Numbered from the stretch's first letter, positions 1,634-60,171 are shown. The stretch: DNA of 64,000 nucleotides from Candidatus Nomurabacteria bacterium (GCA_963832025.1 CAWHSF010000003.1:366121-430120); one strand, 5' to 3'. Notes: generated by a model not told the origin, from the letters alone. Program-made: numbers and translations.

Positions 1634-3470
1634 ATGAATATTTCCTACAATTGGCTTAAATGGTACATTCCGGAAGCACCCGAGGCGGAAAAGCTGGTGG
1701 ATATTTTTAATTATCATCTCTGCGAAGTCGAGAGCTTAGAAAAGAAACCTGATGGAGATATTATTTTTGACTTGAAAATTTTACCAAACCGCGCGCATGA
1801 CTTGCTTTCTCATCAGGGCGTCGCTCGCGAGCTTGCTTCACTTTTAGATATAAAATTTGTTGACCCTACGCCAAAATATAAAATACCCGAATCAAAACCG
1901 ACCAGTTTAAAAATAGAAATAGAAAGTGATAAATGCCGTCGGTATATGGGACGGATTATTCGCAATGTAAAAGTCGGTCCGTCTCCGGAGTGGGTGGTGC
2001 AACATTTGGCTTCAATCGGGCAGAGAAGCATCAACAACATGGTGGATGCAGCAAATATTGTCATGTTTGATTGTGGTCAACCAACACATGTTTTTGACTT
2101 AGATAAAGTGAGTGAGAAATTAGTGGCTCGTATGGCGAAAGAAGGTGAAAAAATTACGACCTTAGACAATAAAGATTGTAGTCTGGAAGACTCTAATTTA
2201 GTCATTGCTGACGCTAAAAATGTTTTGGCCATCGCCGGAGTAAAAGGTGGAAAAATTGCCGAAGTAAACAATGACACAAAAAACATTATATTGGAGGTGG
2301 CAAATTTCGACCCAACTTCTGTCAGAAAAACTGCGCAAGCTTTAAACATTGTCACTGATGCGAAAAAACGTTTCGAAAATGACCTATCTCCAGAGTTGGG
2401 TTCTTACGCCATGCTTGAATTGTCCGCGCTAATTTTAGAAATGTGTGGAGAGGCTACTTTTGAAGATGTTGTGGATGCCCACCCGACCGAGTCATTCGGG
2501 CAGGTTTATCCACAAAAACAAGAAATAAAAAAGCTTTCTTTTTCAGCCGATAAAATATCAAAAATTTTAGGCGTTGATATTCCTATAGATAAAATAAAAG
2601 ATATTTTAGAGAGATATAATTTAGAATACGTAGAAGATAAAGGAGTTTTTGAAATTACGGTTCCACCGATGCGGCTAGATTTGGTCATTGAAGAAGACAT
2701 GGCGGAAGAAATCGGGAGGATTTTAGGATACGACAAAGTAGAAGGGAAGGTTCCGAAAATAAATTTTAAACCAAAAGTAAATGAGGCGTATGCAAAAATT
2801 GTTTTTGCCAGACATAAACTATTGAGCGATGGATATTCGGAAGTGATGAATACGAGTTTTAGCAATAAAGGGGAAGTGTCTGTTTTGGCATCTGCTTCCG
2901 ATAAAAATTTTCTAAGAGCAAATTTAACTGATGGGTTAAAAGAAAGTATCAAACTAAATCAAGCGAATGCTCCGCTGTTGGGGACGGAGCAAGTTAAAAT
3001 TTTTGAAATTGGAACGGTGTTTAAAAAAAGTGGGGAAGAGATGCATGTGGCTTATGGAGACAAGAAAGAGGTAAAAGAAATAACACTAGATGAATTTTGC
3101 TCTGGAATGCTGGAGCAGAATTCATTGGCATTACTCCACCCTGCGGGCGGAACCTTCCGCCAGCAGAATTCTGCTCCAGCATTCCAGATGTGGTCACTGT
3201 TTCCATTTATTGCGCGCGATATTGCGGTATGGGTTCCGGAAAATATAAAAAGTCGGAGATGTTGCTTTAGTCATCAAAAATAACATGGGAGATAAAGTTA
3301 TTCGAGGACCGGAACTTTTTGATGAGTTTAAAAAAGACGGAAAAATTTCTTATGCGTTTAGATTGGTATTTCAATCTTATGACAGAACTTTGACCGACCA
3401 AGAAGTGAACAATATTATGACAAAAATCACTGACCAGATAAAAGCAAAAAATGGCTGGCAGGTGAGATAG
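1634..3470 (+). CDS. pheT: Phenylalanine--tRNA ligase beta subunit, with no N-terminal tRNA-binding domain. Annotated as two ORFs because of a frame break.
   Basis: N-terminus NISYNWLKWYIP, PNRAHDLLSHQGVAREL, B3/4 and B5-like sequence, C-terminus ISYAFRLVFQSYDRTLTDQEV. ORFs 1634..3283 and 3285..3470 join across the A5 run at 3247-3251, giving ENIK-VGDVALVIKNNMGDKV. Confidence 0.9.
3102..3187. repeat. 86-bp hairpin element inside pheT (family A, opposite orientation)
   Basis: Perfect 22-bp terminal inverted repeats CTGGAATGCTGGAGCAGAATTC (3102-3123) and GAATTCTGCTCCAGCATTCCAG (3166-3187). Confidence 0.9.
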
Positions 3471-3562
3471 ATTTTTTGTCAGTTATCCCCAATATTTTGC
3501 TGAGTTTTCCTTTTCGGGAAAGGCTTATTTTGGTATAATATATAAAACAAACATAGAAAAAT

Positions 3563-4882
3563 ATGAAGCAAAAAAATAATTTTAAGATTTTCGTAAAAAA
3601 ATCACTAGTTTCTATTTTTTTTGTTCTCTTTTTTATTTTTACTTCCCATGTTTTTGCGACAACCGACCTCACAGCATTATCGCAACCCAATATTGCTAAT
3701 ACTCTAAAAACACAAAGCGAAGAAACATTACTAAATGCATTAAATAATGCGGATGTAATTTCTAAACTCACTGTTCCCACAACAACAACTATTCCTAAAA
3801 ATAATATTGTTCACCCCCTTTTTCAATTTAAGAACACCAATTTTTCTTTACTAGGGGGCAGTATTATTTCTATTTATAATAATTTTGTCCTACAGCCAAC
3901 TTCGGATGTGGAAACAGCAACACTTTTAATGATAGGGGATGGTCTAATCAGTATGGGCAATGTTACCGATTCTATTTACAGTAATTATGTTTCGTTCCCC
4001 AAATTGGCTTTTTCAACTCCAAAAATTAGTTTACTAAAAATAAATCCACCAAACGAAAACATGTTAGCAGCTGTGGTTGGCGCTGATGTAAATTATTATG
4101 TCACTGATTACAACGATTTTATCCTAAGACCTGTTTCTGGCTTGGAGACATCTATCTTACTTAAAATAGGGGAAGGATTAATCAATACCGGACACGCAAC
4201 GAGTTTTGTTTATAATAATGTTAAAAGCATAGATTCTAATTTTTACAACAACTATACTTCCGAACTCGCTGATATTTTATTTGCTCCCAAGATGGTGACA
4301 AAGACAACAGCTACTCCTACACCCGCAGTTGCTTCTGCTCAGAATACAAACACTTTAAATACCGCACCTACTGAGGCAGTTCAAACAGCTGGTATCATTA
4401 AAAATTGTGGAACAAGTATTGCTCCAAAATTTGGCAGTCCGGCTACTTATGAAAATAATTCCACACTGACTTGCTTGGCGCAAGCGGCGCTCACTTGTCA
4501 AAACGCGGAAGGTACTTTGACGAATAATTTTTTCCCGACTATCTTTGAAATCAGTAATACACAAAATTCCTGCGACTTTAAATTGTCTTATTCTACGGAC
4601 AGCACCCTTTCCGATATTACCGGCAAAAAACTAGCCGGAGAGTCTGTGTCATGTCCAGTTAGCATCGTGAAGGAGATAGACAACACTAACCCCACTTCTG
4701 TAAAATTTATTGAAGCCGATACTACAGACTTAAGTAAATATGGCAGTGATATATATTTTTATGGAACACTCGGTTTATTTGTAGAAAACGCCCTGGATCA
4801 AAATAAAATCCAATCTCTTGGTTGTAGCGGAGATTATATAAATACGATTATTTCCAGCTACAAAGTTGCTAAAATTCAATGA
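3563..4882 (+). CDS. Secreted protein with an internal duplication and a Cys-containing C-terminal domain
   Basis: Signal-peptide-like N-terminus (KKSLVSIFFVLFFIFTSHVFA). Duplicated ~90-aa module (ILQPTSDVETATLLMIGDGLISMGNVTDS versus ILRPVSGLETSILLKIGEGLINTGHATS). Eight Cys in the last 170 aa. Sits directly upstream of the giant surface gene. Confidence 0.6.
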   Translation: MKQKNNFKIFVKKSLVSIFFVLFFIFTSHVFATTDLTALSQPNIANTLKTQSEETLLNALNNADVISKLTVPTTTTIPKNNIVHPLFQFKNTNFSLLGGSIISIYNNFVLQPTSDVETATLLMIGDGLISMGNVTDSIYSNYVSFPKLAFSTPKISLLKINPPNENMLAAVVGADVNYYVTDYNDFILRPVSGLETSILLKIGEGLINTGHATSFVYNNVKSIDSNFYNNYTSELADILFAPKMVTKTTATPTPAVASAQNTNTLNTAPTEAVQTAGIIKNCGTSIAPKFGSPATYENNSTLTCLAQAALTCQNAEGTLTNNFFPTIFEISNTQNSCDFKLSYSTDSTLSDITGKKLAGESVSCPVSIVKEIDNTNPTSVKFIEADTTDLSKYGSDIYFYGTLGLFVENALDQNKIQSLGCSGDYINTIISSYKVAKIQ

Positions 4883-4929
4883 AAATTGGTTGAGTCTAAG
4901 TAGGTAATTTTTTACCCTTATTTTATATA

Positions 4930-4957
4930 GCCGAGATTAGCCGAGATTAGCCGAGAT
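4930..4957. repeat. Tandem decamer gccgagatta x2.8
   Basis: gccgagatta gccgagatta gccgagat, in the intergenic region upstream of the giant gene. Confidence 0.8.
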
Positions 4958-5017
4958 GCTTTTAGTTTTCCACATATTTTATACTTTTCGCATTATTAAA
5001 AAGGTATAATTAAACTA

Positions 5018-8000
5018 ATGAATTCTCGCTTATATCTTGGCGATGATAACAAGAAATACATCTCAACTAAAGAGGCTAGTTCTTTGACGGGTTACTCCAG
5101 AGATTATATAGGCCAACTTGTCCGAAGTAATAAGATAGATTCCCAAAAAATTGGCCGTACATGGTATGTCTCGGAGGAAGCAATTTTGAACTATAAAATA
5201 TTCTCAAATCAATTAGGGTTGGTTCCAGATGTGGCGCCAGAAAAGATCCAAAGTGAAAATTTTATTCAAAATCCGGTCGTGATTCCAGTTCCGAGTGTAA
5301 AACTTCCTGCTCCTTCCGTGTCGGGCGAAAAATTAAAAAAGAACCTAAAAAGAAAAAAAATACTTTTATCAACTTTTAGTTTTCTCCTGATAGCCGGGAT
5401 AGTCTCTGCGAGTGGTATCAATTTTAAAGAAGTCTTTAAAAATACTTTCTCCACGCCCAAAAGTTTTTTATCTGCTAGTTCAATCCAATCATTCCCCAAC
5501 AACAAAACACCGACCATAAACATTTCTGACTTGGCGACTTCATATGAAAATTATCTTACTCCACAAGTAGCAACCTCAAGTAAACCTTCTGCTCCTTCGG
5601 TTGAAAAAATTATTGAAATTGAAAAAAGTCCGGTTACGCAAACTGCTGTTCTTTCCATTTTGCAGAACTTGCTCAGCGAACCGGCAATCCAAAATGAACT
5701 TCGTGGTCCGACTGGACCAACCGGCCCAGCCGGAACTTCGGGAAGCTATGCCACCTACACCAGTTATGTGGCTCCGAATCCGGCAATCAATTATGTCGGC
5801 GCCACTTTTTCTTCCGCTTCCAATTTATCTTCCAACCTCTTGAACACCGGCACAGCCAACATAAATAATTTAGCTGTCTCCGCCGGCGCGATAATCGGAA
5901 GTTTGAATGTGACAGGAGATTCTTCTTTTGGCGGACAAGTTGTCGCCTCAACTGTTGTTGATTCCGGTTTAGTAAACCAAACTTGCATCGGCACCGATGC
6001 ATCAGGCGCATTTGAAGCCGGCACTTGTGGCAGTGGTAGTGGCAGTCAGTGGACAACTAGCGGGTCAGATATTTATTACAACACCGGCAACGTCGGCATC
6101 GGCACAACTTCACCGGCAGCAACGCTCGATGTCACCGGCACAGGTAATTTTTCCGGCGCACTGACCGCGGGAACAATTAACGGCATCACTTTCTCCGGTT
6201 CTTCCACGCCGACGCTCAGTGTCTCCGGAACGGCTTCCGTCTCTGGCGCCAACACCGGAGACAATGCAACCAACACACAATATGCAAATGACTATCGAGC
6301 AGCAAATTTTGTCGCCGGCACAGATTACCAAGCCCCCGTCACTCTCACTACCACCGGCAGTAGCGGAGCTTCCACTTTTTCTAGTAACACTTTAAATATT
6401 CCAAACTACACTCTCGCAGGTCTCGGAGGAATTTCTAATATCTCCGGTCAAGATTTAAGCACAGCCAACAATGCAACATCAAAATTTATAACTTTAGGTT
6501 CGCTTTCTGCCGGAACCGGAATTTCTTACGATAATACGACTGGGATAATTACAAATTCTGCTCCAGACCAAACCGTTGCTTTTTCCGGTGGAACAAATGT
6601 AACGATTGGTGGAACTTATCCAAACTTTACAATTACCGACAACTCCATAACTACGGGAGGAGCCAGAAGCGCAATTTCACTGACAACCACCGGAAGTTCC
6701 GGAGCCTCTACTTATAATTCGGGAACGGGTGTTTTAAATATTCCTCAATATCAAGCAGGATTGAGTTTAATTAAGGGAACTTATGTTGATGGGGATGTTT
6801 GTACTTATGCTTCTACCGGCACTCTTTTAAATTGTAATACCGCGGCATATCAAATAGCTTCTTCCGCTCTTTCTTCCATCGCCGGTCTTGCTTGGTCTTC
6901 CGGAACACCTTTCGTTAAAATGACAGCCTCCGGAACCTTTGCGCTAGATACAAATACATATGCGACCGGAAGTGGAACAGCCAGTGGCACCAACACCGGC
7001 GACCAAACACTTACCATCGGGGGCACAACTTCTCCAACTATCGCCTTATCGGGAAGCAATACAGCAACATTCTCCGCAGGAACAGGAATTACTTTAGGGC
7101 AATCGGCTGGAACGATAACAATTACAAATTCTGCACCTTTCACTGGGGGACTTCTTGCTACCGGTGCAACTACCGGTGCAACAAGCCAAGCTCAAGCGTT
7201 TACCAATGGCATAATCTCTCCGACCATTCTGGGCGGTTCAGGAACAACGCAAACACTTAACTTCCAAACTACTTCAGGGGTGGGTGCAACGGGAGCCGAT
7301 ATGCATTTCAATGTCGGCAACAACGGAGCGACGAATGCCATGACGATTTTGAATAGCGGCAACGTCGGCATCGGGACGACGAGTCCGGCACAGAAGTTAA
7401 CTGTCACTGGTGGAAATATACAAATGACTGATGCTGGGGCGAAATTGTATTTAACAGATGGCTCACATTATGTTTCTTACGACGGCACAAATACGCAAAT
7501 ATTTTCTAGTGTTGGTGGCGTCAATTTAGCAGTTAATACGGCATCTCCTATTTCATTTATAACTAATTCAGCGTACCAAATGAGGTTAAGTGCTACTGGA
7601 GGATTGTCACTTGGTTCAACCTATTATTCTACGGACGCTGGGGCAGGGAATATGATAATACAAGGCAAGGTCGGCATCGGGACGACGACGCCTGCTTATG
7701 GTTTAGATGTAGCAAAAGGGACTGGGGCAACGGCACAATTTTTTGACCAAACCGCGACCACGGGTAGCACGCTTGTTACTATTCAAGCAGGTGCGGCACA
7801 AAACGCTGGAGCTTATACAAATGTTTTGAATTTTGCTGGCAATAATGGAACGACCAGAGGGTATATAGCTGTAGACGGATTGAACGGAGTATCAAAACTA
7901 AATATTACTGATGTTGTCGCTTCAAATGGTAATTGGGAGTTAAAAGATTCGGGCTCGTTAAATATGTATGCTGGCAATTCAATCTACTTGCAAAATGCTC

Positions 8001-11000
8001 ACTCCAACTCTAATATACAATTGTATAACACTGGGGCAACGGGGGTATCGAGTCTAGCAATAATGAACGGCAACGTCGGCATCGGGACCACGGGGCCGAG
8101 TGATTTGTTGCAACTTGGCACTGGAAATTTAAGTTGGTCATCTGATGGTGGCGGTGATATTGGGGCGAGTGGAGGAAATAGACCAGGGAATATTTATGCT
8201 AAGATTCAAGTCAGGGCTGGTGCTGGTTATCTAAATGGTAATACGGTTGGAGGGAGTAGCAATTTTGCTTTGTCTGGTGGTGGTAGTGCTACTTTGACAA
8301 TTGGCGGAACAAGCAACACCATTGTTTTCAAAACTACCGCCTCTAATTCAGAGGTAATGAGGATAGAACCAATAAACGGCAACGTCGGCATCGGGACGAC
8401 GACACCGACGGCTTACTTAAACATCAAAGCAGGAACAGCCACAGCTAACACCGAACCTCTACAACTTACCGCTGGAGTATTAAACACCTCCGCCGTCTCC
8501 GGAGCATTAGAAACAGATGCAAGTAACAATTTATATTACACACCGGGTACAGGAACGAGAGGAATTATTCCTTTGGGCACAGCGGCAAATACTTTGCTCT
8601 TTACTACTACTGGTGCGACGAATGTGACTTTACCAACAAGTGGAACGCTGGCAACACTTGGTTCTCCAACTTTCACTGGCACTGTCACCACACCGGCTTT
8701 AACCATTTCCGGTATCACCGGCAGTACCCAATGCTTACAAGTCAACAGCAGTGGTGTGGTCAGTGGCACATCTGCAGCTTGTGGCGGAGGTGGTGGTTCA
8801 ACTGCTTGGAGCAGTATCACCAACCCAAGCGGAAATCTTTCTTTGGCAATGGCTGGTGACACCAGTACTTTCACTTACGGAGCGACAACCGGTTCAGCAA
8901 ACTTGTTCAACTTAACCGACACCTCTTCCAATACCGGCACTGGAGTTTTGTTGAATGTCTCAACTGCCAGTGGTTCTACTTTAAATCCTTTCTCCGTGAC
9001 TACCGCCGGTGCAACAAATCCGAGCTTGTATGTCGGTTCTAATGGTAACGTTTCAATTGGAACCTCAATTACAAATACTGCAGTTCTGCAAGTACAAGCA
9101 CCGGTTCCGGAGAGTAGTCTTTTTGCTTTTGCGAACCATGATTTTTCTCTGGGTAGCGTAGGAACTGCCATGACGATTGATACCGGAGCTACCTCCGGAG
9201 ATACCTATGTGGATATGCAAGCTTACAACGCTGGTGGAGTTAATGGCGGTCCTTTAGTTTTTAATGCTGCTGGTGGTAATGTCGGGATTGATACAAACGA
9301 CCCAACTACCGCTCTCACCGTTAATGGGAGTATGTCCAATCTCCTTAATCCCAGTTCAGCTTTTTTAAATGTTGTAGGTTCGACATCAATTACTTCTGCT
9401 TCCGTGGTCTACGTCTCCGGTAACTATGCCTATGTGGCAGATTATACCGGTAATGAACTTGATATTGTTGACATTACCAATCCGAATGCTCCCTATGTGG
9501 CTGGCACATTAAGCGGAATTAATCATATCTCTTCCATCTACGTTTCCGGTCGTTATGCCTATGTGACGGACAAAAGTATTGGTGACATGACTATCATTGA
9601 TGTTTCCAATCCGATTTCACCGACTGTGGTCGGTACATTAACCGGACTTAATACTCCTACCTCCATCTACGTTTCTGGTCGTTATGCCTATGTAGCGGAT
9701 AGCGGTAGTGGTGATATGTATGTGATTGATGTTTCCACTCCGAGATTACCGATTGTGGTTGCCACCTTAACCGGGCTGAGTAGTCCTTCCTCCATCTATG
9801 TTTCCGGTCATTATGCCTATGTAGCAGATAGTGGTAGTGGTCACATGTCTATCATCGATATTTCCGATCCGGTTTCACCGAATGTGATAGGTACAGCAAC
9901 CGGACTTGGTAGTCCCTCCTCTGTCTATGTCTCCGGTCGTTATGCCTATGTGACGGATACGGGTAGTGGTAACTTGTATTCCATTGACCTTTCCAACCAA
10001 GCTTCTCCGAGTGTGGTTGGTACGCTACCAGGATTTATTACTCCAACTGATGTCTATGTTTCTGGTAATTTTGCATATGTAACAGACAGTGACGGTGAAC
10101 TCGACGTCGTTGATATTTCCGACCCGACTACTCCGATTTATGATACATATGCAGGACTTACTGCTCCCGACTCGGTCTATGTCTCCGGTCAGTATGCCTA
10201 TGTCGCGGATAGTGGTGGCGGCGATATGGCTGTCATTGACCTAACCGGAACACAAACAACTTCCTTGACCGCCGGGAGTGCGAACATCGGCAACTTGCAG
10301 ATTGCTAATGATTCTTTGGTTGGTGGTCAACTGCAAGTAAATGGTGCCCTGACAGCCAACGGTGGAAACTTTAACAGTGGAGTTGCAGTAAATGGAAATA
10401 TTTCCAATACCATTTCATCTTCTTCTCCTCCGACTGTCGTTGCTACTGCCACCGGGCTGACTAATATCTTAACTGACTATGTCTCCGGTAACTATGCGTA
10501 TGTAGGAACTGGTACCGGTGGTACTGGTCATATGTATATCGTTGATATTTCCAATCCGACTGCTCCGAGTGTTGTCGGTACATTATCAGGGGTTGGTAAG
10601 ATTAATTCTATCTATGTTTCCGGTCAGTATGCCTATGTGTTAGATGATAGTAATGGCTACATGGATGTCGTTGATATTTCCAATCCGCATGCCCCAAGTG
10701 TTGTCGGTACAGTGGTAGGGTTTACTGGTCCTGTATCTATCTATGTTTCCGGTCATTATGCCTATGTGACAGATGCCAATTCTCTGACTTTGTCTGTCAT
10801 CGATGTTTCCAACCCGACTGCTCCGAATCTCATCGGAAGTCCATTGTCGCTGACTGCTCCTCTCTTCATCTATGTTTCCGGTCATTATGCCTATGTGACG
10901 GAAAGTGGTGGGAGCATGGATATCATTGATGTTTCCAATCCGTATTCTCTGAGTATTGTCGGTACAGCCACAGGACTTGGTTCTCTTGATGGCAATGTCT

Positions 11001-12514
11001 ATGTCTCCGGTCGTTATGCGTATGTAACAAATACTGCTAGTAGTGGTGATATGTATGTCGTTGATGTTTCCAATCCAGTTTCTCCAAGTACTGTCGGTAC
11101 ATTAGGACTTTCTTGGCCTCTTGGTATCAATGTCTCCGGTCATTATGCCTATGTGACGAGTTATGCTGGTGGTGGCATGTATGTCCTTGATGTTTCCAAT
11201 CCGACTGCTCCAAGTGCTGTTGCTCTTACACTCGGACTGACTACTCCTTCTTTTATCAGGGTTTCCGGTCGTTATGCCTATGTGGTGGAATCTACTGCTA
11301 GTTCCATGGCTGTCATTGACCTCACTGGTACCCAAACAACTTCTCTCACCTCCGGTAGTGCTAACATCGGTAACTTGCAAATTGCTAATGATGCTTTGAT
11401 TGGTGGTCAACTGCAGGTGAATGGTGGTTTGACGGCAAGTGGTGGAAACTTTTCGGGGGATGTGGCGACTGAGGGATCCTTAAACATTGCTGGATATGTA
11501 GGTATCGGGACGACGATGCCGGACAATCCTCTTACTGTTAACGGCGCAGCGGACAATACTACCGGTGTATGGTCTGTATTTTCTGATGAACGCTTGAAAA
11601 ATATTGACGGCAACTTTAATGATGGCTTGTCCACCCTGATGCAGTTTAATCCGGTTACGTTTACCTATAATGGACAAAATGGAATTTCGGACACTACTAC
11701 ACAGCAAATTGGTATCGTTGCTCAAGACGTGCAACAATTTGCTCCATATATGATAAATACAGTGGAAGGGACATTGAACGGACAGCCTACGAGTCTACTT
11801 CAATTCAACCCGCAAGCATTGCCATATATCACCATCAATGCAGTTAAGGAATTGAATCTAGATTTAGATGCGATTTCGGGATTGACGGTGCCGACTCCGA
11901 CTCCGGAATCTACCAGTTTTGCAACTGCGTTCTTTAAAAATATTGAAACTAAACTTATTGCTTGGTTTGCTGATGCTGGGAATGGAATAGGAGATTTGTT
12001 CGCTGGAACAATTCACGCTACAAATGAACTATGTATCAACACCACTTGCGTGACTCAAGCACAACTGCAAGCACTTTTGGCAAATTTAAATTCAAACGGA
12101 AACGCAGGAAACAATACGTCTGCCAATGCAGGCGAAAATAATTCAAATGTTCAAAATCCGCCTTCCAGTATTCCCGTAATCACTTTGATTGGTGATGCCA
12201 CCATTAATTTAAATGTCGGAGATACTTACACTGAACAAGGAGCAACTGCCACCGAAAATGATAATGCAGTCGCGGTTGTTATCAGCGGGACGGTAGACAC
12301 AACCACTGCCGGCACTTACACTGTTGATTATGATGCGACGGATTCTGCCGGGAACAAAGCGGTTGAAGTTACGAGAACAGTGATTGTTGCAAATGCGCCA
12401 GTTTCAACTTTTTCGTCGGACTCAGGATCTACGGCTACGCCTGCGACAACACCAGATTCAACAACAGCTAATTCCACAACCACTCCAGATTCTAGCACTT
12501 CAACTTCAAACTAA
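5018..12514 (+). CDS. Giant (2498 aa) membrane-anchored surface protein. Domain order: N-terminal excisionase-type HTH, one TM helix, short collagen-like GPT run, tail-fibre-like GNVGIGTTSP repeats, two 7-repeat LVIVD blocks, S74-type intramolecular chaperone domain, Ig-like domain, Thr/Ser-rich tail.
   Basis: Single uninterrupted ORF. HTH: YISTKEASSLTGYSRDYIGQLVRSNKIDSQKIGRTWYV. TM: LLSTFSFLLIAGIVSASGI. Collagen-like: GPTGPTGPAGTSG. Seven G(N/K)VGIG(T/D)T motifs. Fourteen YVSGxYAYVxD...(V/I)(V/I)D(V/I)SNP repeats. S74 domain: SDERLKNI...GIVAQDVQQFAPYMI. Ig-like: ITLIGDATINLNVGDTYTEQGATA...AGTYTVDYDATDSAGN. Confidence 0.85.
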   Translation: MNSRLYLGDDNKKYISTKEASSLTGYSRDYIGQLVRSNKIDSQKIGRTWYVSEEAILNYKIFSNQLGLVPDVAPEKIQSENFIQNPVVIPVPSVKLPAPSVSGEKLKKNLKRKKILLSTFSFLLIAGIVSASGINFKEVFKNTFSTPKSFLSASSIQSFPNNKTPTINISDLATSYENYLTPQVATSSKPSAPSVEKIIEIEKSPVTQTAVLSILQNLLSEPAIQNELRGPTGPTGPAGTSGSYATYTSYVAPNPAINYVGATFSSASNLSSNLLNTGTANINNLAVSAGAIIGSLNVTGDSSFGGQVVASTVVDSGLVNQTCIGTDASGAFEAGTCGSGSGSQWTTSGSDIYYNTGNVGIGTTSPAATLDVTGTGNFSGALTAGTINGITFSGSSTPTLSVSGTASVSGANTGDNATNTQYANDYRAANFVAGTDYQAPVTLTTTGSSGASTFSSNTLNIPNYTLAGLGGISNISGQDLSTANNATSKFITLGSLSAGTGISYDNTTGIITNSAPDQTVAFSGGTNVTIGGTYPNFTITDNSITTGGARSAISLTTTGSSGASTYNSGTGVLNIPQYQAGLSLIKGTYVDGDVCTYASTGTLLNCNTAAYQIASSALSSIAGLAWSSGTPFVKMTASGTFALDTNTYATGSGTASGTNTGDQTLTIGGTTSPTIALSGSNTATFSAGTGITLGQSAGTITITNSAPFTGGLLATGATTGATSQAQAFTNGIISPTILGGSGTTQTLNFQTTSGVGATGADMHFNVGNNGATNAMTILNSGNVGIGTTSPAQKLTVTGGNIQMTDAGAKLYLTDGSHYVSYDGTNTQIFSSVGGVNLAVNTASPISFITNSAYQMRLSATGGLSLGSTYYSTDAGAGNMIIQGKVGIGTTTPAYGLDVAKGTGATAQFFDQTATTGSTLVTIQAGAAQNAGAYTNVLNFAGNNGTTRGYIAVDGLNGVSKLNITDVVASNGNWELKDSGSLNMYAGNSIYLQNAHSNSNIQLYNTGATGVSSLAIMNGNVGIGTTGPSDLLQLGTGNLSWSSDGGGDIGASGGNRPGNIYAKIQVRAGAGYLNGNTVGGSSNFALSGGGSATLTIGGTSNTIVFKTTASNSEVMRIEPINGNVGIGTTTPTAYLNIKAGTATANTEPLQLTAGVLNTSAVSGALETDASNNLYYTPGTGTRGIIPLGTAANTLLFTTTGATNVTLPTSGTLATLGSPTFTGTVTTPALTISGITGSTQCLQVNSSGVVSGTSAACGGGGGSTAWSSITNPSGNLSLAMAGDTSTFTYGATTGSANLFNLTDTSSNTGTGVLLNVSTASGSTLNPFSVTTAGATNPSLYVGSNGNVSIGTSITNTAVLQVQAPVPESSLFAFANHDFSLGSVGTAMTIDTGATSGDTYVDMQAYNAGGVNGGPLVFNAAGGNVGIDTNDPTTALTVNGSMSNLLNPSSAFLNVVGSTSITSASVVYVSGNYAYVADYTGNELDIVDITNPNAPYVAGTLSGINHISSIYVSGRYAYVTDKSIGDMTIIDVSNPISPTVVGTLTGLNTPTSIYVSGRYAYVADSGSGDMYVIDVSTPRLPIVVATLTGLSSPSSIYVSGHYAYVADSGSGHMSIIDISDPVSPNVIGTATGLGSPSSVYVSGRYAYVTDTGSGNLYSIDLSNQASPSVVGTLPGFITPTDVYVSGNFAYVTDSDGELDVVDISDPTTPIYDTYAGLTAPDSVYVSGQYAYVADSGGGDMAVIDLTGTQTTSLTAGSANIGNLQIANDSLVGGQLQVNGALTANGGNFNSGVAVNGNISNTISSSSPPTVVATATGLTNILTDYVSGNYAYVGTGTGGTGHMYIVDISNPTAPSVVGTLSGVGKINSIYVSGQYAYVLDDSNGYMDVVDISNPHAPSVVGTVVGFTGPVSIYVSGHYAYVTDANSLTLSVIDVSNPTAPNLIGSPLSLTAPLFIYVSGHYAYVTESGGSMDIIDVSNPYSLSIVGTATGLGSLDGNVYVSGRYAYVTNTASSGDMYVVDVSNPVSPSTVGTLGLSWPLGINVSGHYAYVTSYAGGGMYVLDVSNPTAPSAVALTLGLTTPSFIRVSGRYAYVVESTASSMAVIDLTGTQTTSLTSGSANIGNLQIANDALIGGQLQVNGGLTASGGNFSGDVATEGSLNIAGYVGIGTTMPDNPLTVNGAADNTTGVWSVFSDERLKNIDGNFNDGLSTLMQFNPVTFTYNGQNGISDTTTQQIGIVAQDVQQFAPYMINTVEGTLNGQPTSLLQFNPQALPYITINAVKELNLDLDAISGLTVPTPTPESTSFATAFFKNIETKLIAWFADAGNGIGDLFAGTIHATNELCINTTCVTQAQLQALLANLNSNGNAGNNTSANAGENNSNVQNPPSSIPVITLIGDATINLNVGDTYTEQGATATENDNAVAVVISGTVDTTTAGTYTVDYDATDSAGNKAVEVTRTVIVANAPVSTFSSDSGSTATPATTPDSTTANSTTTPDSSTSTSN

Positions 12515-12681: not shown

Positions 12682-14778
12682 ATGGCAAAAGAGAAAGAAG
12701 ACAAAAAAGGTGGCGACAAAAGCCACCATTATGATGCCTCCGACATCTCGGTTTTGGAGGGTCTGGAGCCGGTTCGACGCCGTCCGGGCATGTATATCGG
12801 TACGACGGGGCCGGAAGGCTTACATCATTTGATTTGGGAAATTTTTGACAACTCTCGTGATGAAGCGATGGGTGGTTTTTGTGACGATATTGAAATTGTG
12901 CTTTTGCCAAACAACCGCATACGCGTCGCCGACAACGGCCGAGGCATGCCGGTAGACATTCATAAAAAAACCAAAGTCTCCGCGTTGGAGACAGTCATGA
13001 CGACACTGCACGCCGGAGGAAAATTCGGCGGTGACCATAGTGGCTACAAAGTTTCCGGAGGTTTGCACGGTGTCGGCGCTTCGGTAGTGAATGCGCTTTC
13101 TATTTTTTGCGAAGCGAGAGTTTGTCGAGACGGTGGTGAATACCGACAAGAATATTCGGAGGGCAAAAGAAAATCCGCGGTTAAAAAAATAGCGTCTTCA
13201 AAATTGCATGGCACGATTATCACTTTTGAACCGGATAAAAAAATTTTTGGTGATATTAAATTTGATTGGAATACCATTGTCGCTCATATTCGCCAACAAG
13301 CTTATTTGGTGAAAAAACTGAAAATTTTAATTATTGATGCGCGTGAATGGGACAATAATAAAGGTATGAATGAATCCGACGTTTTTTATTTTCGGGACTT
13401 GAGGCTGGAACTTCCGTCGGTCTCTTTTTATTTTGAAGGCGGATTGGTTTCTCTCGTAAAATATTTGAACAAATTTCAAAAGCCCGTCCAAAGCAATATT
13501 TTTTATGTTGAAAAAGAATTGGATGGTGTCGGTGTGGAGATAGCTCTGCAATATGTAGATGATATTTCCGAACGCATCATTCCTTTTGCAAACAATATCA
13601 ATACTCCCGAAGGTGGCACCCATGTGACTGGTTTTAAAACAGCACTCACTAGAACTTTGAATACTTACTGCAAGAAAAATGAAATGATGAAAGAGTCCGA
13701 AGGCGGATTTACCGGCGAAGACGTCTTGGAAGGTTTGACGGCGGTCATTTCTGTAAAATTGCGCGAGATACAATTTGAAGGTCAGACTAAAGCAAAACTC
13801 GGTAGTATGGAGGCGCAAGGCGCGGTGGCGACAGTTTTCGGCGAAGCCTTCGCAAATTTCTTGGAAGAAAATCCGGACGAAGCAAAAATAATCATCAACA
13901 AATCCATTCTTGCCTTAAAAGCCCGCAAAGCCGCCAAAGCCGCCAAAGATTCCATCCTCCGCAAGGGTGCTTTGGAAGGGATGACTCTTCCGGGGAAACT
14001 CGCAGACTGCCAGAGCAAGAATGCATCCGAATCCGAACTATTCATCGTGGAGGGAGATTCCGCAGGTGGTAGTGCCAAACAAGGACGCGACCGTCGCACT
14101 CAAGCTATTTTGCCACTTGCGTGGAAAAATTTTGAATGTTGAACGCGCGCGCATTGACAAAATGCTCGCTTCCAAAGAAGTGAAATCGCTTGTCATTGCC
14201 ATGGGTACATCCATAGGAGATACCTTTGATATAGACAAAATGCGTTACCATAAAATAATCATCGCGACCGATGCCGACGTGGACGGTTCCCACATCAGCA
14301 CATTGCTTTTGACTCTTTTCTATCGATATTTTCGCCAAGTGATTGACGCGGGATATATTTACATCGCGCAGCCTCCACTATATAAAATAAAAAAAGGCAA
14401 AGAAATTTTTTATGCTTACACTGATGAAGAAAAAGTAAAAATTATCGGCAAAAATGCGGATGTGAGTGACATTGAGGAGGTGGAAGATGAAGAACCCCTA
14501 CCCGACCTCCCCCTTGTTAAGGGGGAGGAGAAGAGGAGGAGGGTCTAGAGAAAAAATCCACTAAAATTCACATTCAGCGATATAAAGGTCTCGGAGAAAT
14601 GAATCCAGAAGAACTTTGGGAGACGACCATGGATCCTGCACATCGCGTGCTCAAGCAAGTGATGATTAATGACGCCGAAGAAGCCAACAAAATTTTTGAT
14701 ATTCTCATGGGCTCCGAAGTTCCTCCGCGTAAATCTTTCATTCAATCCAATGCGAAACTAGCGGAGATTGATATCTAA
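12682..14778 (+). CDS. gyrB: DNA gyrase subunit B. The reading requires two frame changes.
   Basis: Motifs [70 protein letters not shown] and [19 protein letters not shown]. The frame changes near 14117 (extra base between CTT and CGT) and returns in the G5 run at 14521-14525, inside a palindromic insert. Confidence 0.9.
14506..14528. repeat. Family B palindrome inside gyrB
   Basis: cctccccctt-gtt-aagggggagg. The 10-bp stems are identical to the smc copy. Confidence 0.85.
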
Positions 14779-59502: not shown

Positions 59503-59529
59503 ATTTTTTCGATATAAATGATTTCAGTG

Positions 59530-59600
59530 TGGACCTAGCGAGAATCGAACTCGCGCTTCGTCAATGCGAATGACGCGTAATACCACTTTACTATAGGCCC
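59530..59600 (-). tRNA. tRNA-Ala (anticodon CGC)
   Basis: The reverse complement gggcctatagtaaagtggtattacgcgtcattCGCattgacg... has the G3:U70 pair, A73, a perfect 5-bp anticodon stem and a TTCGATT T-loop. Confidence 0.75.
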
Positions 59601-59615
59601 GTGTATGCGGGTATG

Positions 59616-59687
59616 TGCGTCTTGTTGGAATCGGACCAACGGCCTTTCCGATGTGAACGGAACGCTCTACCCCTGAGCTAAAGACGC
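59616..59687 (-). tRNA. tRNA-Val (anticodon CAC)
   Basis: The reverse complement gcgtctttagctcaggggtagagcgttccgttCACatcggaa... folds as a cloverleaf with acceptor gcgtctt/aagacgc. Confidence 0.85.
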
Positions 59688-59702
59688 AAGCAGAATTCCC
59701 AG

Positions 59703-59773
59703 TGGACCTACGGAGAGTCGGACTCCGACCTCGTCCATGCCATGGACGCGTTCTACCGCTGAACTATAGGCCC
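59703..59773 (-). tRNA. tRNA-Ala (anticodon GGC)
   Basis: The reverse complement gggcctatagttcagcggtagaacgcgtccatGGCatggacg... has the G3:U70 pair and A73. Confidence 0.85.
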
Positions 59774-59858
59774 GTCTGTAGAATAATAGCCGAAATATAT
59801 AAAAATACAACGGCAATTTACATTTTAATCAAAATAATATAAAATGCCTTTGTTGTCT

Positions 59859-60157: not shown

Positions 60158-60171
60158 GATATGATTTAGAA

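What the first reader, a model, noticed from the sequence alone, without database searches (positions are those of the whole stretch)
5018..12514. A 2498-aa protein couples a cytoplasmic excisionase-type HTH, via one TM helix, to a phage-tail-fibre-like extracellular array
Predicted topology and domain order:
- N-terminal 60 aa: HTH_17/excisionase-like DNA-binding motif
- One TM helix (aa ~118-135)
- A GPTGPTGPAGTSG collagen-like run
- Seven GNVGIGTTSP tail-fibre-type repeats
- Two seven-repeat LVIVD blocks
- An S74 self-cleaving chaperone domain
- An Ig-like domain and a Thr/Ser-rich tail

The extracellular part looks like an adhesin or host-contact fibre, as expected for an episymbiont. A DNA-binding domain tethered to it suggests a ToxR/CadC-style one-component link between surface contact and transcription.

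The -10 box (tataat, 5005-5010) lies only ~7 nt from the ATG and there is no SD. The mRNA may therefore be leaderless.
Basis: partly seen in the sequence, partly recalled or inferred. Interest (0 to 1): 0.75.

Follow-up and report, generated by a model that had tools for sequence, protein, structure and literature searches.

The report
Membrane-anchored giant fibre with cytoplasmic HTH
A 2498-residue surface fibre of an ultra-small (Patescibacteria) bacterium carries a DNA-binding-type domain on the cytoplasmic side of its single membrane anchor, and this design, with a conserved promoter of repeated CCGAGAT motifs, recurs across the phylum and may link the cell surface to gene control.

Summary
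ORF 5018-12514 is intact. Its domain order is a MerR/excisionase-type winged HTH (aa 11-60), one N-in TM helix (115-135), a collagen-like run, 8 GxVGIGT stalk motifs, two 7-blade LVIVD propellers, an S74/ICA self-cleaving chaperone (S2189/K2194), an Ig-like domain and an S/T-rich tail.

It is not an assembly artefact or a prophage gene. The same HTH-TM-giant ectodomain design heads at least 38 ORFs in Patescibacteria species genomes, and the HTH is their most conserved part (64-83% identity against 25-45% elsewhere).

New here:
- These genes share a promoter: 2-4 CCGAGAT heptamers (10-bp tandem or palindromic), a TT(A/T)TCCACA box, 31 nt, TATAAT, 7 nt, ATG. This strongly supports the leaderless idea.
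- A small soluble MerR-type gene lies divergently upstream in about 30 loci but not in this window.
- Small 2xHTH-TM genes often precede the fibre genes.

My best reading is a trimeric contact fibre whose flexibly tethered HTHs bind the heptamers and feed back on their own promoter. This is inferred, not shown. The main rival is that the soluble MerR-type protein binds the heptamers and the HTH is a protein-interaction module. ToxR/CadC is an analogy only, because the DNA-binding domain is of a different family.

The parts
4928..4957 (+). Three tandem 10-bp repeats (TAGCCGAGAT)x3. The core heptamer CCGAGAT sits at 4931, 4941 and 4951. This is a candidate operator, centred about -60 to -90 from the inferred transcription start.
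   Evidence: TRF: period 10, 3.0 copies, 100% match. The same heptamer lies at the same relative position in homologous loci, as 2-4 direct repeats (L001-L008) or as the palindrome ATCTCGG-N4-CCGAGA(A/T). It is 15.8-fold enriched upstream of HTH genes, binomial p 1e-59. 26 of 42 heptamer clusters lie within 450 nt upstream of an HTH gene.
4965..4980 (+). Conserved box GTTTTCCACATATTTT. Its core TTTTCCACA (4966-4974) fits the DnaA-box consensus TTWTNCACA. In relatives the box start lies a fixed 39-41 nt upstream of the TATAAT (30-32 nt between them).
   Evidence: Identical 16-mer in L001, L002, L003 and L005. Invariant columns in the 9-locus alignment. Box-to-TATAAT spacing is 30-32 nt in 39 cases. 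It is not specific to HTH genes: the same architecture precedes unrelated leaderless genes in metagenomes.
5005..5010 (+). -10 hexamer TATAAT, 7 nt upstream of the start codon. No -35 match and no Shine-Dalgarno at functional spacing.
   Evidence: Sequence. TATAAT and the 7-nt gap to ATG are invariant in alignment A4 and recur in about 40 loci. The sigma-70 scan finds no -35/-10 pair.
5018..12514 (+). Gene for the 2498-aa HTH-TM-fibre protein, probably on a leaderless mRNA starting at or next to A5018.
   Evidence: The N-terminus MxSxL(F/Y)..NKKYIS is shared by homologs. An independent assembly, L188, matches window 3133-6226 apart from differences near its contig ends and one A in a homopolymer.
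5048..5197 (+). Cytoplasmic winged helix-turn-helix (aa 11-60), MerR/excisionase (HTH_17) type.
   Evidence: Pfam HTH_17 and TIGR01764. PHROG excisionase, E 8e-5. AF2 pLDDT above 90 with b-a-a-b-b-a topology. Foldseek low-rmsd matches to Pukovnik Xis (1.2 A over 46 columns), RacA-DNA, TraN, BldC and RdfS. It is the most conserved segment, 64-83% identical between homologs.
5198..5359 (+). Disordered, Lys-rich cytoplasmic linker (aa 61-114). It ends in an A8 homopolymer (5353-5360) immediately before the TM-coding part.
   Evidence: AF2 pLDDT below 50 for most of aa 73-106. 8 K/R against 1 D/E in aa 95-114. An A7 variant in an independent assembly truncates the product to 123 aa.
5360..5422 (+). 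Single transmembrane helix (aa 115-135), acting as an N-in signal anchor.
   Evidence: This is the only 19-residue window with Kyte-Doolittle hydropathy above 1.6. AF2 predicts a helix at 112-131. K/R count is 7 before and 2 after. A signal-peptidase-like small-x-small motif is not conserved in the family.
5705..5743 (+). Collagen-like GXY run GPTGPTGPAGTSG (aa 230-242).
   Evidence: Conserved as LRGPxGPxGPxG in subfamily alignment A2.
6086..9295 (+). Gly/Ser/Thr-rich stalk with seven of the eight GxVGIGT motifs (aa 357, 781, 883, 1018, 1121, 1343, 1420). The eighth is at aa 2159, just before the S74 domain.
   Evidence: DNA repeat families D9 and D10, 61-79% identity. No Pfam or PHROG family covers it.
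9365..10312 (+). First block of seven LVIVD repeats (a 7-bladed beta-propeller) followed by a stalk segment.
   Evidence: Pfam LVIVD E 8e-93 and Beta_propel. YVSGxYAYV at aa 1465-1721. 129-nt DNA units at 63-86% identity.
10430..11392 (+). Second block of seven LVIVD repeats followed by a repeat of the stalk segment (D8: 147 nt, 84% identical to 10226-10372).
11582..11746 (+). [quoted passage not shown] Predicted self-cleavage before S2189, with K2194 as the general base.
   Evidence: Pfam 37.9 bits against a cutoff of 22. SDERLK motif; S40, D41 and K45 are nearly invariant in the 29-sequence alignment. AF2 block-mean pLDDT is 85-96 over fragment residues 41-130. Foldseek match to the MyRF ICA crystal structure 7dc3: E 1.9e-4, prob 1.0, TM 0.60-0.62.
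12179..12388 (+). Bacterial surface Ig-like domain (aa 2388-2457), located on the fragment that S74 cleavage would release.
   Evidence: Pfam E 1.5e-18. Foldseek matches to BT2262 (E 1e-6) and Big_3 2kpn.
12389..12511 (+). Thr/Ser-rich C-terminal tail (aa 2458-2498).
   Evidence: Composition. AF2 pLDDT below 50.

Best explanation
The gene encodes a type-II (N-in) single-pass membrane protein of a Patescibacteria (CPR) bacterium.

Structure (shown by profile and fold evidence):
- A MerR/excisionase-type winged HTH stays in the cytoplasm, on a disordered tether of about 50 residues.
- One TM helix anchors the protein.
- About 2,360 residues lie outside the cell. They form a fibre with a collagen-like run, GxVGIGT stalk segments and two 7-bladed LVIVD propellers.
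- A C-terminal S74/ICA chaperone with an intact Ser-Lys dyad follows.

Inferred from the known behaviour of S74/ICA domains: the fibre is a homotrimer. It cuts itself before S2189 and sheds the last 310 residues, which comprise the chaperone, the Ig-like domain and the S/T tail.

Family context (shown): it belongs to a large, apparently undescribed Patescibacteria-wide family. In this family the same highly conserved HTH-TM module heads giant, fast-evolving surface proteins. These genes are transcribed from a conserved leaderless promoter that carries 2-4 CCGAGAT heptamers on one face of the DNA helix.

Most likely mechanism (inferred):
- The fibre is a host- or substrate-contact adhesin.
- Its three flexibly tethered HTH modules bind the heptamers of its own promoter, and possibly those of a few other promoters.
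- The amount or assembly state of anchored fibre would thereby feed back on transcription at the membrane.
For: Architecture and topology.

The gene is real:
- Internal DNA repeats are only 60-86% identical.
- An independent assembly matches across the 5' end, apart from differences near its contig ends and one base in a homopolymer.
- Complete homologs with the same order exist: L004 2929 aa, L007 2130, L008 2526, L010 1720; also P0010, P0011 and P0088.

Family size and range:
- 4447 clusters at 50% identity match the N-terminal 160 aa.
- 58 GTDB species loci are almost all Patescibacteria, and 38 of them are HTH+TM ORFs of 630 aa or more.

Constraint: the HTH is 64-83% identical between homologs, against 25-45% for every other segment.

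Cis element:
- Heptamer repeats sit at a fixed position in the window and in relatives.
- They are 15.8-fold enriched upstream of HTH genes, p 1e-59.
- 21 clusters lie 80-107 nt before the HTH coding start.
- In an unbiased promoter-pattern scan, heptamers occurred upstream of 2 of 4 HTH genes and 0 of 116 other hits.

Why the tethered HTH is a plausible binder:
- The same heptamer occurs as 10-bp direct repeats in some lineages and as an 11-bp-spaced palindrome in others, next to similar small MerR genes. This argues for an orientation-insensitive binder, meaning independent and flexibly tethered monomers (inference).
- The window keeps three heptamers although no small MerR gene is present in 64 kb.
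- Two homologs with altered recognition helices (L040 DYIGRLCR, L023 TEHIGELCR) have altered or missing heptamers.

Gene-neighbourhood link between the HTH-TM module and S74 fibres:
- 2xHTH-TM genes lie directly upstream of HTH-giant genes.
- In L060/L062 a 2xHTH-TM gene lies three genes upstream of an S74 fibre that has only a plain signal peptide.
Against: - No experiment or direct computation shows that this HTH binds DNA at all. Its recognition helix carries an invariant Asp-Tyr (SRDYIGQL), unusual for HTH_17.
- MerR-like folds can also bind proteins; CbpM was among the best fold matches.
- A small soluble MerR-type gene is divergently transcribed from about 30 homologous fibre genes, and its own promoter carries a heptamer. 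That is the textbook arrangement for the real regulator.
- Small 2xHTH-TM genes carry the same HTH but mostly lack heptamers upstream.
- The covariation evidence is n=2.
- The enrichment statistics use related loci, which are not independent.
- Trimerisation and cleavage are inferred from family behaviour only.
- How a signal could cross one TM helix from a 2,300-residue fibre is unexplained.
Confidence: 0.45

Rival explanations
1. The protein and fibre are as described, but the HTH module is not a transcription factor. It is a conserved cytoplasmic protein-interaction or localisation domain, comparable to the HTH of RodZ binding MreB or to MerR-like CbpM binding CbpA. It would dock the fibre anchor to a conserved partner, for example the 2xHTH-TM proteins, a secretion or assembly platform, or a cell pole. 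The CCGAGAT heptamers would then be the operator of the small soluble MerR-type regulator.
For: - The recognition helix is almost invariant across thousands of proteins and many paralogs. That fits one conserved partner better than diverse operators.
- CbpM is a top fold match.
- A divergent small MerR gene sits in about 30 loci with a heptamer in its own promoter.
- 2xHTH-TM genes are adjacent to fibre genes.
- 2xHTH-TM genes mostly lack heptamers.
Against: - The fold, the basic residues (K12, K13, R36, K39, R47) and the closest solved relatives (Xis, RacA, TraN, BldC, RdfS) are all DNA binders.
- The heptamers persist in the window and in about 10 other loci that have no nearby MerR gene.
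- A rigid MerR dimer does not easily explain both direct and inverted heptamer arrangements.
Confidence: 0.3
2. The HTH binds DNA but acts structurally, not as a regulator. Like RacA in Bacillus, it would tether the nucleoid or its own locus to the membrane under the fibre. An example would be to favour co-transcriptional and co-translational insertion of a 7.5-kb leaderless message.
For: - RacA-DNA is among the best fold matches.
- The mRNA is leaderless, with the HTH as the first domain to emerge from the ribosome.
- Heptamers lie on one helical face next to the promoter.
- Some homologs also have a palindrome inside the linker-coding region, at about +215 to +290.
Against: Heptamer clusters are few and promoter-proximal, not spread along the DNA; the window has one clear cluster in 64 kb. 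No evidence exists for a polar or division partner.
Confidence: 0.12
3. A contact-triggered proteolytic switch. Host contact or force on the fibre leads to intramembrane or juxtamembrane cleavage, which frees the HTH as a soluble regulator (RIP-type logic).
For: - The topology is that of RIP substrates.
- A naturally occurring A7 variant of the A8 tract would yield exactly such a soluble 123-aa HTH protein. A free form is therefore at least genetically accessible.
Against: - The only protease-like element, S74, lies about 2,050 residues beyond the TM on the outside, so its cleavage cannot free the HTH. This is unlike MYRF (PMC3742443).
- No site-2 protease or rhomboid gene lies beside the gene.
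- The A7 variant may be a sequencing error.
Confidence: 0.08
4. Artefact, or something ordinary: a mis-joined repeat assembly, a false fusion of an excisionase gene to an adhesin gene, or a prophage tail-fibre gene.
For: The window contains at least one probable indel error, a gyrB frameshift. Giant repetitive genes often break assemblies; 34 of the 38 homologous ORFs of 630 aa or more run off the fetched sequence.
Against: - The same fusion, in frame, occurs in dozens of species, including four complete genes.
- An independent contig matches across the HTH-TM junction except for the A-tract length.
- Internal repeats are divergent.
- The neighbours are housekeeping genes: pheS, pheT, gyrB, thrS, nusB, rnc, smc.
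- There are no relatives in viral contigs and no PHROG fibre hit.
Confidence: 0.03

Closest known systems
ToxR / CadC / TcpP membrane-bound one-component regulators (own knowledge)
   Same: An N-terminal cytoplasmic DNA-binding domain, one TM helix and an extracytoplasmic C-terminal part. Direct repeats in target promoters are typical for ToxR and CadC.
   Different: The DNA-binding domain here is HTH_17/MerR-type, not OmpR/PhoB winged helix. The external part is a roughly 2,360-residue fibre, not a small sensor domain. It is probably trimeric. DNA binding is untested.
MYRF, the eukaryotic membrane-bound transcription factor with a phage-derived ICA/S74 domain (PMC3742443, PMC3742440, PMC8326128)
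   Same: A type-II membrane protein that combines a DNA-binding domain, a TM helix and an ICA/S74 trimerisation and self-cleavage domain. The best solved fold match of this S74 region is the MyRF ICA domain, 7dc3.
   Different: MYRF has the order DBD-ICA-TM, so cleavage frees the DBD trimer. Here the order is HTH-TM-fibre-ICA, so cleavage happens outside the cell and cannot free the HTH. The DBD families also differ (Ndt80-like against HTH_17).
Phage endosialidase tailspikes and T5-type L-shaped tail fibres with a C-terminal intramolecular chaperone (own knowledge; PDB 3gw6)
   Same: A beta-propeller head, then a stalk, then an S74 chaperone with a Ser-Lys dyad. Collagen-like and Gly-rich stalk motifs. 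Trimer-dependent autocleavage is expected.
   Different: This is a chromosomal gene in a housekeeping context with no virion-attachment domain. It is anchored in the cell membrane by an N-terminal TM helix with a cytoplasmic HTH. There are no PHROG fibre hits and no viral relatives of the N-terminal module.
RodZ (own knowledge)
   Same: A cytoplasmic HTH, one TM helix and an external domain. It shows that a membrane-tethered HTH can serve protein binding (MreB) and not DNA binding.
   Different: The RodZ HTH is XRE-type and its external domain is small. No Pfam hit to RodZ-type domains was found here.
Small MerR/excisionase-like DNA binders without effector domains: Xis (Pukovnik), BldC, RdfS, RacA N-domain, and TraN/AM32 with two tandem HTHs (PDB hits)
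   Same: The same b-a-a-b-b-a winged-helix fold. Xis and BldC bind direct repeats head-to-tail, and RacA tethers DNA to a membrane-associated site. TraN/AM32 has two tandem modules, as do the 2xHTH relatives here; it is the best PDB sequence hit, E 0.002.
   Different: Those proteins are soluble. This module is covalently tethered to a TM helix and a giant ectodomain, and it has its own signature (KKYIS.KEAS.LTGYS.DYIGQL.R..KI......R.WYV).
Trimeric autotransporter adhesins (the NCBI name given to one partial homolog, P0163)
   Same: Long, probably trimeric, repetitive surface fibres. One homolog shows a weak YadA_head repeat hit.
   Different: No YadA-type C-terminal beta-barrel anchor was found. 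The anchoring is N-terminal in the cytoplasmic membrane, and Patescibacteria lack a classical outer membrane (own knowledge).

Membership tests
HTH_17 / excisionase-MerR winged helix (PF12728, TIGR01764) | Profile match at or above the curated threshold | tested here: met
   Borderline. The full protein scores 24.7 bits against a cutoff of 27 and TIGR01764 scores 27.3 against 28.8. The N-terminal 288 aa alone score 28.3. Homologs pass clearly: P0045 40.0, P0003 39.6, P0006 35.9. 6 of 10 subfamily members match.
HTH_17 / excisionase-MerR winged helix (PF12728, TIGR01764) | b-a-a-b-b-a winged-helix fold | tested here: met
   AF2 pLDDT 90-94 for aa 11-60 with the expected elements. Foldseek matches to Xis 4j2n (rmsd 1.2), RacA 5i44, TraN 4p0z, BldC 6ama and RdfS 8dgl with probability 0.95-1.0. 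E-values are only 0.03-0.2 because the domain is short.
HTH_17 / excisionase-MerR winged helix (PF12728, TIGR01764) | Sequence-specific DNA binding | not testable with these tools
   Only indirect evidence: conserved heptamer repeats in the family's promoters.
ToxR/CadC-type membrane-bound transcription activators | Cytoplasmic N-terminal DBD, single TM helix, extracytoplasmic C-terminal domain | tested here: met
   One TM helix at aa 115-135, positive-inside (7 K/R before, 2 after), no N-terminal signal peptide, K/R-rich N-domain.
ToxR/CadC-type membrane-bound transcription activators | DBD of the OmpR/PhoB winged-helix family (Trans_reg_C) | tested here: not met
   No Trans_reg_C hit; the domain is HTH_17.
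ToxR/CadC-type membrane-bound transcription activators | Binds repeats in target promoters and regulates transcription | tested here: inconclusive
   Repeats exist and are conserved, but the binding protein is unknown. A soluble MerR-type neighbour is an alternative.
[quoted passage not shown] | Profile match above the curated threshold | tested here: met
   37.9 bits against 22, aa 2189-2243.
[quoted passage not shown] | Catalytic Ser and Lys (S-x4-K) at the start of the domain | tested here: met
   S2189-D-E-R-L-K2194. The corresponding S, D and K are at least 90% conserved in 29 aligned relatives.
[quoted passage not shown] | ICA fold | tested here: met
   AF2 block-mean pLDDT is 85-96 over fragment residues 41-130. 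Foldseek match to the MyRF ICA structure 7dc3: E 1.9e-4, TM 0.60-0.62. The match to endosialidase chaperone 3gw6 is weak, E 0.098.
[quoted passage not shown] | Trimerisation-dependent autocleavage | not testable with these tools
   Needs expression of aa ~2100-2498, wild type against S2189A and K2194A.
MYRF-type auto-processed membrane-bound transcription factors | ICA domain between the DBD and the TM helix, so that self-cleavage releases the DBD | tested here: not met
   The order is HTH (11-60), TM (115-135), then ICA (2189-).
LVIVD beta-propeller repeat proteins (PF08309) | Tandem LVIVD repeats in propeller-sized sets | tested here: met
   E 8e-93. 14 units of 43 aa arranged 7+7.
Phage or prophage tail fibre | Located in a phage or prophage, with relatives in viral genomes | tested here: not met
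   Neighbours are pheS, pheT, gyrB, thrS, nusB, rnc and smc. No N-terminal-module relatives in IMG/VR. PHROGs gives only an excisionase hit and an unknown-function hit.
Trimeric autotransporter adhesin | C-terminal YadA-type membrane anchor | tested here: not met
   No YadA_anchor hit in Pfam. The C-terminus is S74, Ig-like domain and S/T tail.

The most novel reading that the evidence does not exclude
Patescibacteria have a phylum-wide, undescribed surface-to-DNA coupling system. Giant trimeric contact fibres are covalently joined, through one TM helix and a flexible tether, to wHTH modules. These modules bind CCGAGAT heptamers in the fibres' own leaderless promoters. They would act together with 2xHTH-TM partners and a small soluble MerR-type protein. 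Fibre assembly, host contact or an A-tract ON/OFF frameshift (A8 gives the full fibre; A7 gives a soluble 123-aa HTH) would then reprogram transcription directly at the membrane of a cell so small that the nucleoid touches it.
Probability: 0.25. Interest if true: 0.9.

Novelty: new variant of a known kind. Interest (0 to 1): 0.75.

Why it matters
Patescibacteria make up a large share of bacterial diversity and live attached to other cells. How they sense and hold their hosts is largely unknown.

This finding contributes several things:
- It defines a protein architecture shared by thousands of 'hypothetical' or 'tail fiber domain-containing' proteins.
- It shows that the cytoplasmic HTH is the most constrained part of these fast-evolving fibres.
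- It supplies a concrete, testable cis element (CCGAGAT repeats) and a leaderless promoter layout.

If the HTH does bind that element, it would be the first prokaryotic case of a giant surface adhesin that is itself a DNA-binding regulator. It would resemble MYRF in its parts but with the opposite topology.

If the HTH does not bind, the conserved module still marks an unknown anchoring or assembly pathway for the main surface fibres of these organisms.

Tried and rejected
1. The word-indexed homolog search with the N-terminus found only 4-14 hits. The exhaustive search was needed.
2. PDB sequence searches were uninformative. The whole protein and the N-terminal profile gave no meaningful hit, and the C-terminal fragment gave mostly WD-repeat and designed-repeat (Ika) matches that I regard as spurious. 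Fold search was used instead.
3. PHROGs did not support a 'tail fibre' family assignment.
4. The sigma-70 scan found no promoter because there is no -35 element. Comparative alignment showed the real layout.
5. I first suspected the TT(A/T)TCCACA box was the operator of the HTH, because every such promoter in the homolog loci drove an HTH gene. A pattern scan of metagenomes rejected this: only 4 of 120 hits were HTH genes, and about 35 others started unrelated long ORFs exactly at the ATG. The box is a general promoter-proximal element, identical to the DnaA-box consensus. Its binder is unknown.
6. Signal-peptidase cleavage after the TM helix (VSA|SG in the window) was rejected as a family feature. 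Positions -1 and -3 are often L, V or F in homologs.
7. Covariation between the HTH recognition helix and heptamer variants (CTCGG, CTTGG, CTCGT) is inconclusive, with only two suggestive cases.
8. The upstream 439-aa secreted ORF is not part of a conserved system; it has no homolog in any other locus.
9. No known Rfam family lies in the upstream region.
10. A second truncated homolog (P0162) sits in an error-ridden long-read contig and says nothing about phase variation. Homopolymers before the TM helix occur in 10 of 34 homologs, which Lys codons alone could explain.


Full report
OBSERVATION

The ORF at 5018-12514 (+) is real and encodes 2498 aa.

Pfam on the full protein:
- LVIVD: E 8e-93, 13 stretches.
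- Bact_surface_Ig-like (the former DUF5011): aa 2388-2457, E 1.5e-18.
- Peptidase_S74: aa 2189-2243, 37.9 bits against a gathering score of 22.
- HTH_17: aa 14-59, 24.7 bits, just below the cutoff of 27.

Further support for the HTH:
- NCBIfam TIGR01764 'excise' scores 27.3 against 28.8.
- PHROGs gives an excisionase family at E 8e-5.
- Scanned alone, the N-terminal 288 aa reach 28.3 bits for HTH_17.

Motif counts:
- One collagen-like run, GPTGPTGPAGTSG, at aa 230.
- Eight GxVGIGT motifs, at aa 357, 781, 883, 1018, 1121, 1343, 1420 and 2159. Two are degenerate.
- Thirteen strict YVSGxYAYV units. The DNA repeat family shows 14 units of 129 nt arranged 7+7.
- SDERLK at aa 2189.
- A Thr/Ser-rich end.

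TOPOLOGY AND FOLDS

There is a single strongly hydrophobic segment, aa 115-135. It is preceded by KKNLKRKK. There are 8 K/R against 1 D/E in aa 95-114, and 7 K/R in the 15 residues before the helix against 2 after it. There is no N-terminal signal peptide.

AlphaFold2 with a 17-sequence alignment gives:
- pLDDT 90-94 for aa 11-60, with the order strand-helix-helix-strand-strand-helix.
- A disordered linker.
- A helix at aa 112-131.

Foldseek against the PDB returns MerR/excisionase-type winged helices as the low-rmsd matches:
- Mycobacteriophage Pukovnik Xis (rmsd 1.2 A over 46 columns).
- RacA bound to DNA.
- TraN of Enterococcus (28% identity).
- BldC, RdfS and CbpM.

The E-values are weak (0.03-0.2) because the domain is short. 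The best PDB sequence hit is AM32/TraN, a protein with two tandem HTHs (E 0.002).

So the HTH is supported and predicted to be cytoplasmic.

For the C-terminus, an AF2 model gives block-mean pLDDT of 85-96 over fragment residues 41-130 and above 90 for most of the Ig-like part. It matches the crystal structure of the MyRF ICA domain (7dc3, E 1.9e-4, TM 0.60-0.62). The Ig-like part matches BT2262 and Big_3 domains. The catalytic Ser and Lys are conserved in 29 relatives.

NOT AN ARTEFACT, NOT A PROPHAGE

- Repeats inside the gene are only 60-86% identical at the DNA level.
- An independent assembly, L188 (Logan ERR11523672, 3094 bp), matches window 3133-6226 except for differences near its contig ends and one A in the A8 tract at 5353-5360.
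- The neighbours are housekeeping genes: pheS, pheT, gyrB, thrS, nusB-NUDIX, rnc and smc.
- No relative of the N-terminal module exists in 2.9 million viral contigs.

THE FAMILY

An exhaustive search with the N-terminal 160 aa finds 4447 clusters at 50% identity with E <= 1e-3, and 706 with E <= 1e-10.

Among the fetched top hits, the module is almost always followed by one TM segment. Of the 158 fetched sequences that match the module profile, 146 carry it twice. These are proteins of about 320 aa with 2 HTHs, a conserved helix, a linker, a TM helix and a short tail.

A minority are giants of 1224-4464 aa. Several of these end in S74 with or without an Ig-like domain. One is named 'tail fiber domain-containing protein [Patescibacteria group bacterium]' by NCBI.

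A scan of one genome per GTDB species gave 58 loci. Almost all are Patescibacteria: Nomurabacteria, Zambryskibacteria, Kaiserbacteria, Lloydbacteria, Paceibacterota, Minisyncoccia and MAGs labelled Saccharibacteria. Of these loci:
- 38 are HTH+TM ORFs of at least 630 aa.
- 34 of the 38 run off the end of the fetched sequence.
- Four are complete (2929, 2130, 2526 and 1720 aa), each with SDxRxK near the C-terminus.

Between homologs the HTH is 64-83% identical. Every other segment, including S74, is 25-45% identical, with one exception at 64%. The LVIVD propellers are specific to the window protein; Pfam did not report them in the other giants tested.

NEIGHBOURHOODS

- The 2xHTH-TM genes often lie directly upstream of HTH-TM giant genes.
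- In L064 a 318-aa 2xHTH-TM gene precedes a 1659-aa protein with HTH, TM, S74 and Ig-like domain.
- In L060/L062 a 313-aa 2xHTH-TM gene precedes, by two secreted-protein genes, a 3567-aa S74 fibre that has only a plain signal peptide. The module and the fibre are therefore linked both by fusion and by adjacency.
- A small soluble MerR-type gene of about 80 aa (M..QYITIKQAS.ILGVS.LTLRNWDK.GK; Pfam MerR, HTH_17) is divergently transcribed from the giant gene in about 30 loci. GatB usually lies beyond it.
- The window has neither the MerR-type gene nor a 2xHTH gene within 64 kb.

THE PROMOTER (NEW)

Upstream of the window gene the elements are, in order:
- Three exact 10-bp repeats (TAGCCGAGAT)x3 at 4928-4957.
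- The box GTTTTCCACATATTTT at 4965-4980.
- 24 nt of spacer.
- TATAAT at 5005-5010.
- 7 nt of spacer.
- ATG at 5018.

Nine homologous loci align over this whole region. The CCGAGA cores, most of the box, the TATAAT, the 7-nt gap and the ATG are invariant.

About 30 further loci show the same plan. In these the heptamers form a palindrome, ATCTCGG-N4-CCGAGA(A/T), sometimes doubled. Variant half-sites occur: CTTGG/CCAAG and CTCGT/ACGAG.

Statistics:
- CCGAGA[TA] is 15.8-fold enriched in the 230 nt upstream of HTH coding starts. That is 78 of 335 occurrences in 1.9% of 862 kb, binomial p 1e-59.
- Of 42 clusters of two or more heptamers, 26 lie within 450 nt upstream of an HTH gene, and 21 lie 80-107 nt before the HTH coding start.
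- The loci are related, so these numbers overstate independence. However, the flanking sequence is otherwise divergent.
- In the window the exact unit occurs only here, and single heptamers elsewhere are at chance level.

The box core is TTATCCACA in most loci, which is the DnaA-box consensus. It sits 30-32 nt before the TATAAT in 39 cases.

A pattern scan of metagenomes showed that this box-31-TATAAT-7-ATG layout also precedes unrelated genes, including signal-peptide proteins, a prepilin-like protein and AAA ATPases. Only 4 of 120 hits were HTH genes. The box is therefore a general feature of leaderless promoters in these bacteria. Heptamers occurred upstream of 2 of the 4 HTH hits and 0 of the 116 others.

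No Rfam family matches the region.

HOW IT MOST LIKELY WORKS

Shown by profile and fold evidence:
- An N-in membrane anchor with a cytoplasmic wHTH on a disordered tether.
- A very long Gly/Ser/Thr-rich ectodomain with two propellers.
- A terminal S74/ICA domain with an intact catalytic dyad.

Inferred from what S74/ICA domains do in endosialidases and MYRF (PMC3742443; own knowledge):
- The fibre is a homotrimer.
- The chaperone cuts before S2189 and releases the last 310 residues, including the Ig-like domain.
- The propeller-stalk-chaperone order resembles endosialidase tailspikes (own knowledge).

Inferred about the HTH: it is under the strongest constraint in the protein, and its genes carry a dedicated repeated DNA motif. 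I consider the most likely mechanism to be that the three tethered HTHs bind the heptamers. The heptamers lie on one face of the helix (10-bp direct or 11-bp inverted spacing). Binding would feed back on the gene's own transcription.

Arguments for the tethered HTH as the binder:
- The same heptamer works in both direct and inverted orientation next to similar MerR-type genes. This suggests independent, flexibly linked binding units and not a rigid dimer.
- The motif persists where no MerR-type gene is nearby, as in the window.

Arguments against:
- The divergent MerR-type gene is the classical candidate, and its own promoter carries a heptamer.
- The 2xHTH genes mostly lack heptamers.
- The recognition helix has an invariant Asp-Tyr.
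- MerR-like folds can bind proteins, as CbpM does.
- Nothing here measures binding.

I put about 0.45 on the autoregulatory DNA-binding reading, 0.3 on a protein-interaction role, and the rest on a structural DNA tether, proteolytic release or artefact.

COMPARISON WITH KNOWN SYSTEMS

- ToxR and CadC share the topology but not the DBD family. The membership test fails on that defining feature, so this is 'works like', not 'is a'.
- MYRF shares the parts (DBD, ICA, TM helix, type-II orientation) but has the ICA between the DBD and the TM helix. Here the ICA is extracellular and cannot release the HTH.
- Phage tailspikes share the distal design but not the context or the anchor.
- Trimeric autotransporters are excluded by the lack of a YadA anchor.
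- Seven literature searches found no paper that describes this architecture, the module family or the promoter (and in-paper term searches).

NOVELTY AND LIMITS

This is a new variant of known kinds (membrane-tethered HTH proteins; S74-matured fibres) and a new, very large family.

Limits:
- The taxonomy of the window itself is inferred from its nearest homologs.
- DNA binding, trimerisation, cleavage, the transcription start and any sensing function are all untested.
- The enrichment statistics are not phylogenetically corrected.

Noticed in passing
window 5353-5360 (A8 tract, codons 112-115); L188 (Logan ERR11523672) whole contig: An independent assembly matches window 3133-6226 except for differences near its contig ends and one A fewer in this tract. 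A7 shifts the frame and ends the product at 123 aa: HTH plus linker, with no TM helix and no fibre. This is either a homopolymer error or a phase-variable ON/OFF switch that would turn the tethered HTH into a soluble one. A7-A8 tracts just before the TM helix occur in 10 of 34 homologs.
   Followed up: partly
window 12682-14548 (gyrB), near 14119: gyrB is split into two overlapping ORFs: 486 aa with HATPase_c and DNA_gyraseB, and 175 aa with Toprim. An extra G in ...ILPL(G)RGKILNVE... causes a +1 frameshift. This is probably an assembly or sequencing indel in an essential gene.
   Followed up: partly
metagenome loci L068-L187; window 45625 (+) and 50003 (-): TTATCCACA (the DnaA-box consensus), 30-32 nt, TATAAT, 7 nt, ATG looks like a general leaderless promoter layout in these bacteria. 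About 35 of 120 pattern hits start long unrelated ORFs exactly at the ATG, including secreted proteins, a prepilin-like protein and AAA ATPases. In the window, tsf (50003, -) and a 119-aa membrane protein (45625) also have TATAAT 6-8 nt before the ATG. TTATCCACA is about 10-fold over-represented in the homolog loci, 91 copies against about 9 expected.
   Followed up: partly
L001 9361-9609 (-); L010 9388-9636 (-); about 30 loci in all: A conserved 80-aa soluble MerR/HTH_17 protein (M..QYITIKQAS.ILGVS.LTLRNWDK.GK) is divergently transcribed from the giant fibre gene. Its own promoter carries a heptamer and a TTATCCACA box, and GatB lies beyond it. It is absent from the 64-kb window.
   Followed up: partly
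P0013-P0152; L042, L045, L048-L055, L060, L064: A very large family of proteins of about 320 aa: two tandem HTH modules, a conserved helix (HK.EKDALLAAVQ.ESVG), a linker, one TM helix and a short tail ending LE..L.PEL.Y.R. They are often encoded directly upstream of HTH-TM giant or S74 fibre genes, downstream of SecA-GatB. Function unknown.
   Followed up: partly
L010 10255-10292; L012 10222-10265; L015 10213-10256; L017 7670-7713: In some homologs the same palindrome (A/T)TCTCGG-N4-NCGAGAT, plus a second half-site 43 nt further on, lies inside the coding region for the disordered linker, about +215 to +290 from the ATG. It could be a second, downstream operator. It is not present in the window gene.
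   Followed up: partly
window 3563-4882 (+): A 439-aa ORF just upstream has a signal peptide, an internal duplication and a Cys-containing C-terminal part. It has no Pfam hit and no homolog in any other fetched locus, but it is also present in L188.
   Followed up: partly
window 17610-18521 (+): A NusB domain is fused to a NUDIX hydrolase domain in one 303-aa ORF.
   Followed up: no
window 6001-12000 against flanks: The fibre gene has G+C of 0.45-0.47, against 0.36-0.39 in neighbouring genes. This is probably an effect of its Gly/Ala/Ser/Thr-rich composition, but acquisition from elsewhere was not excluded.
   Followed up: no
window 59529-60487: A cluster of five tRNA genes: Ala-CGC, Val-CAC and Ala-GGC on the minus strand, then Ala-TGC and Asn-GTT on the plus strand.
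   Followed up: no
L001 10001-20508; L189: The closest long homolog (HTH x2, about 3500 codons, ending in S74 and an Ig-like domain) is broken into five ORFs. Its contig also has fragmented transketolase genes, so these are error-prone long-read assemblies. Many short 'HTH-only' database proteins are likely such fragments.
   Followed up: partly
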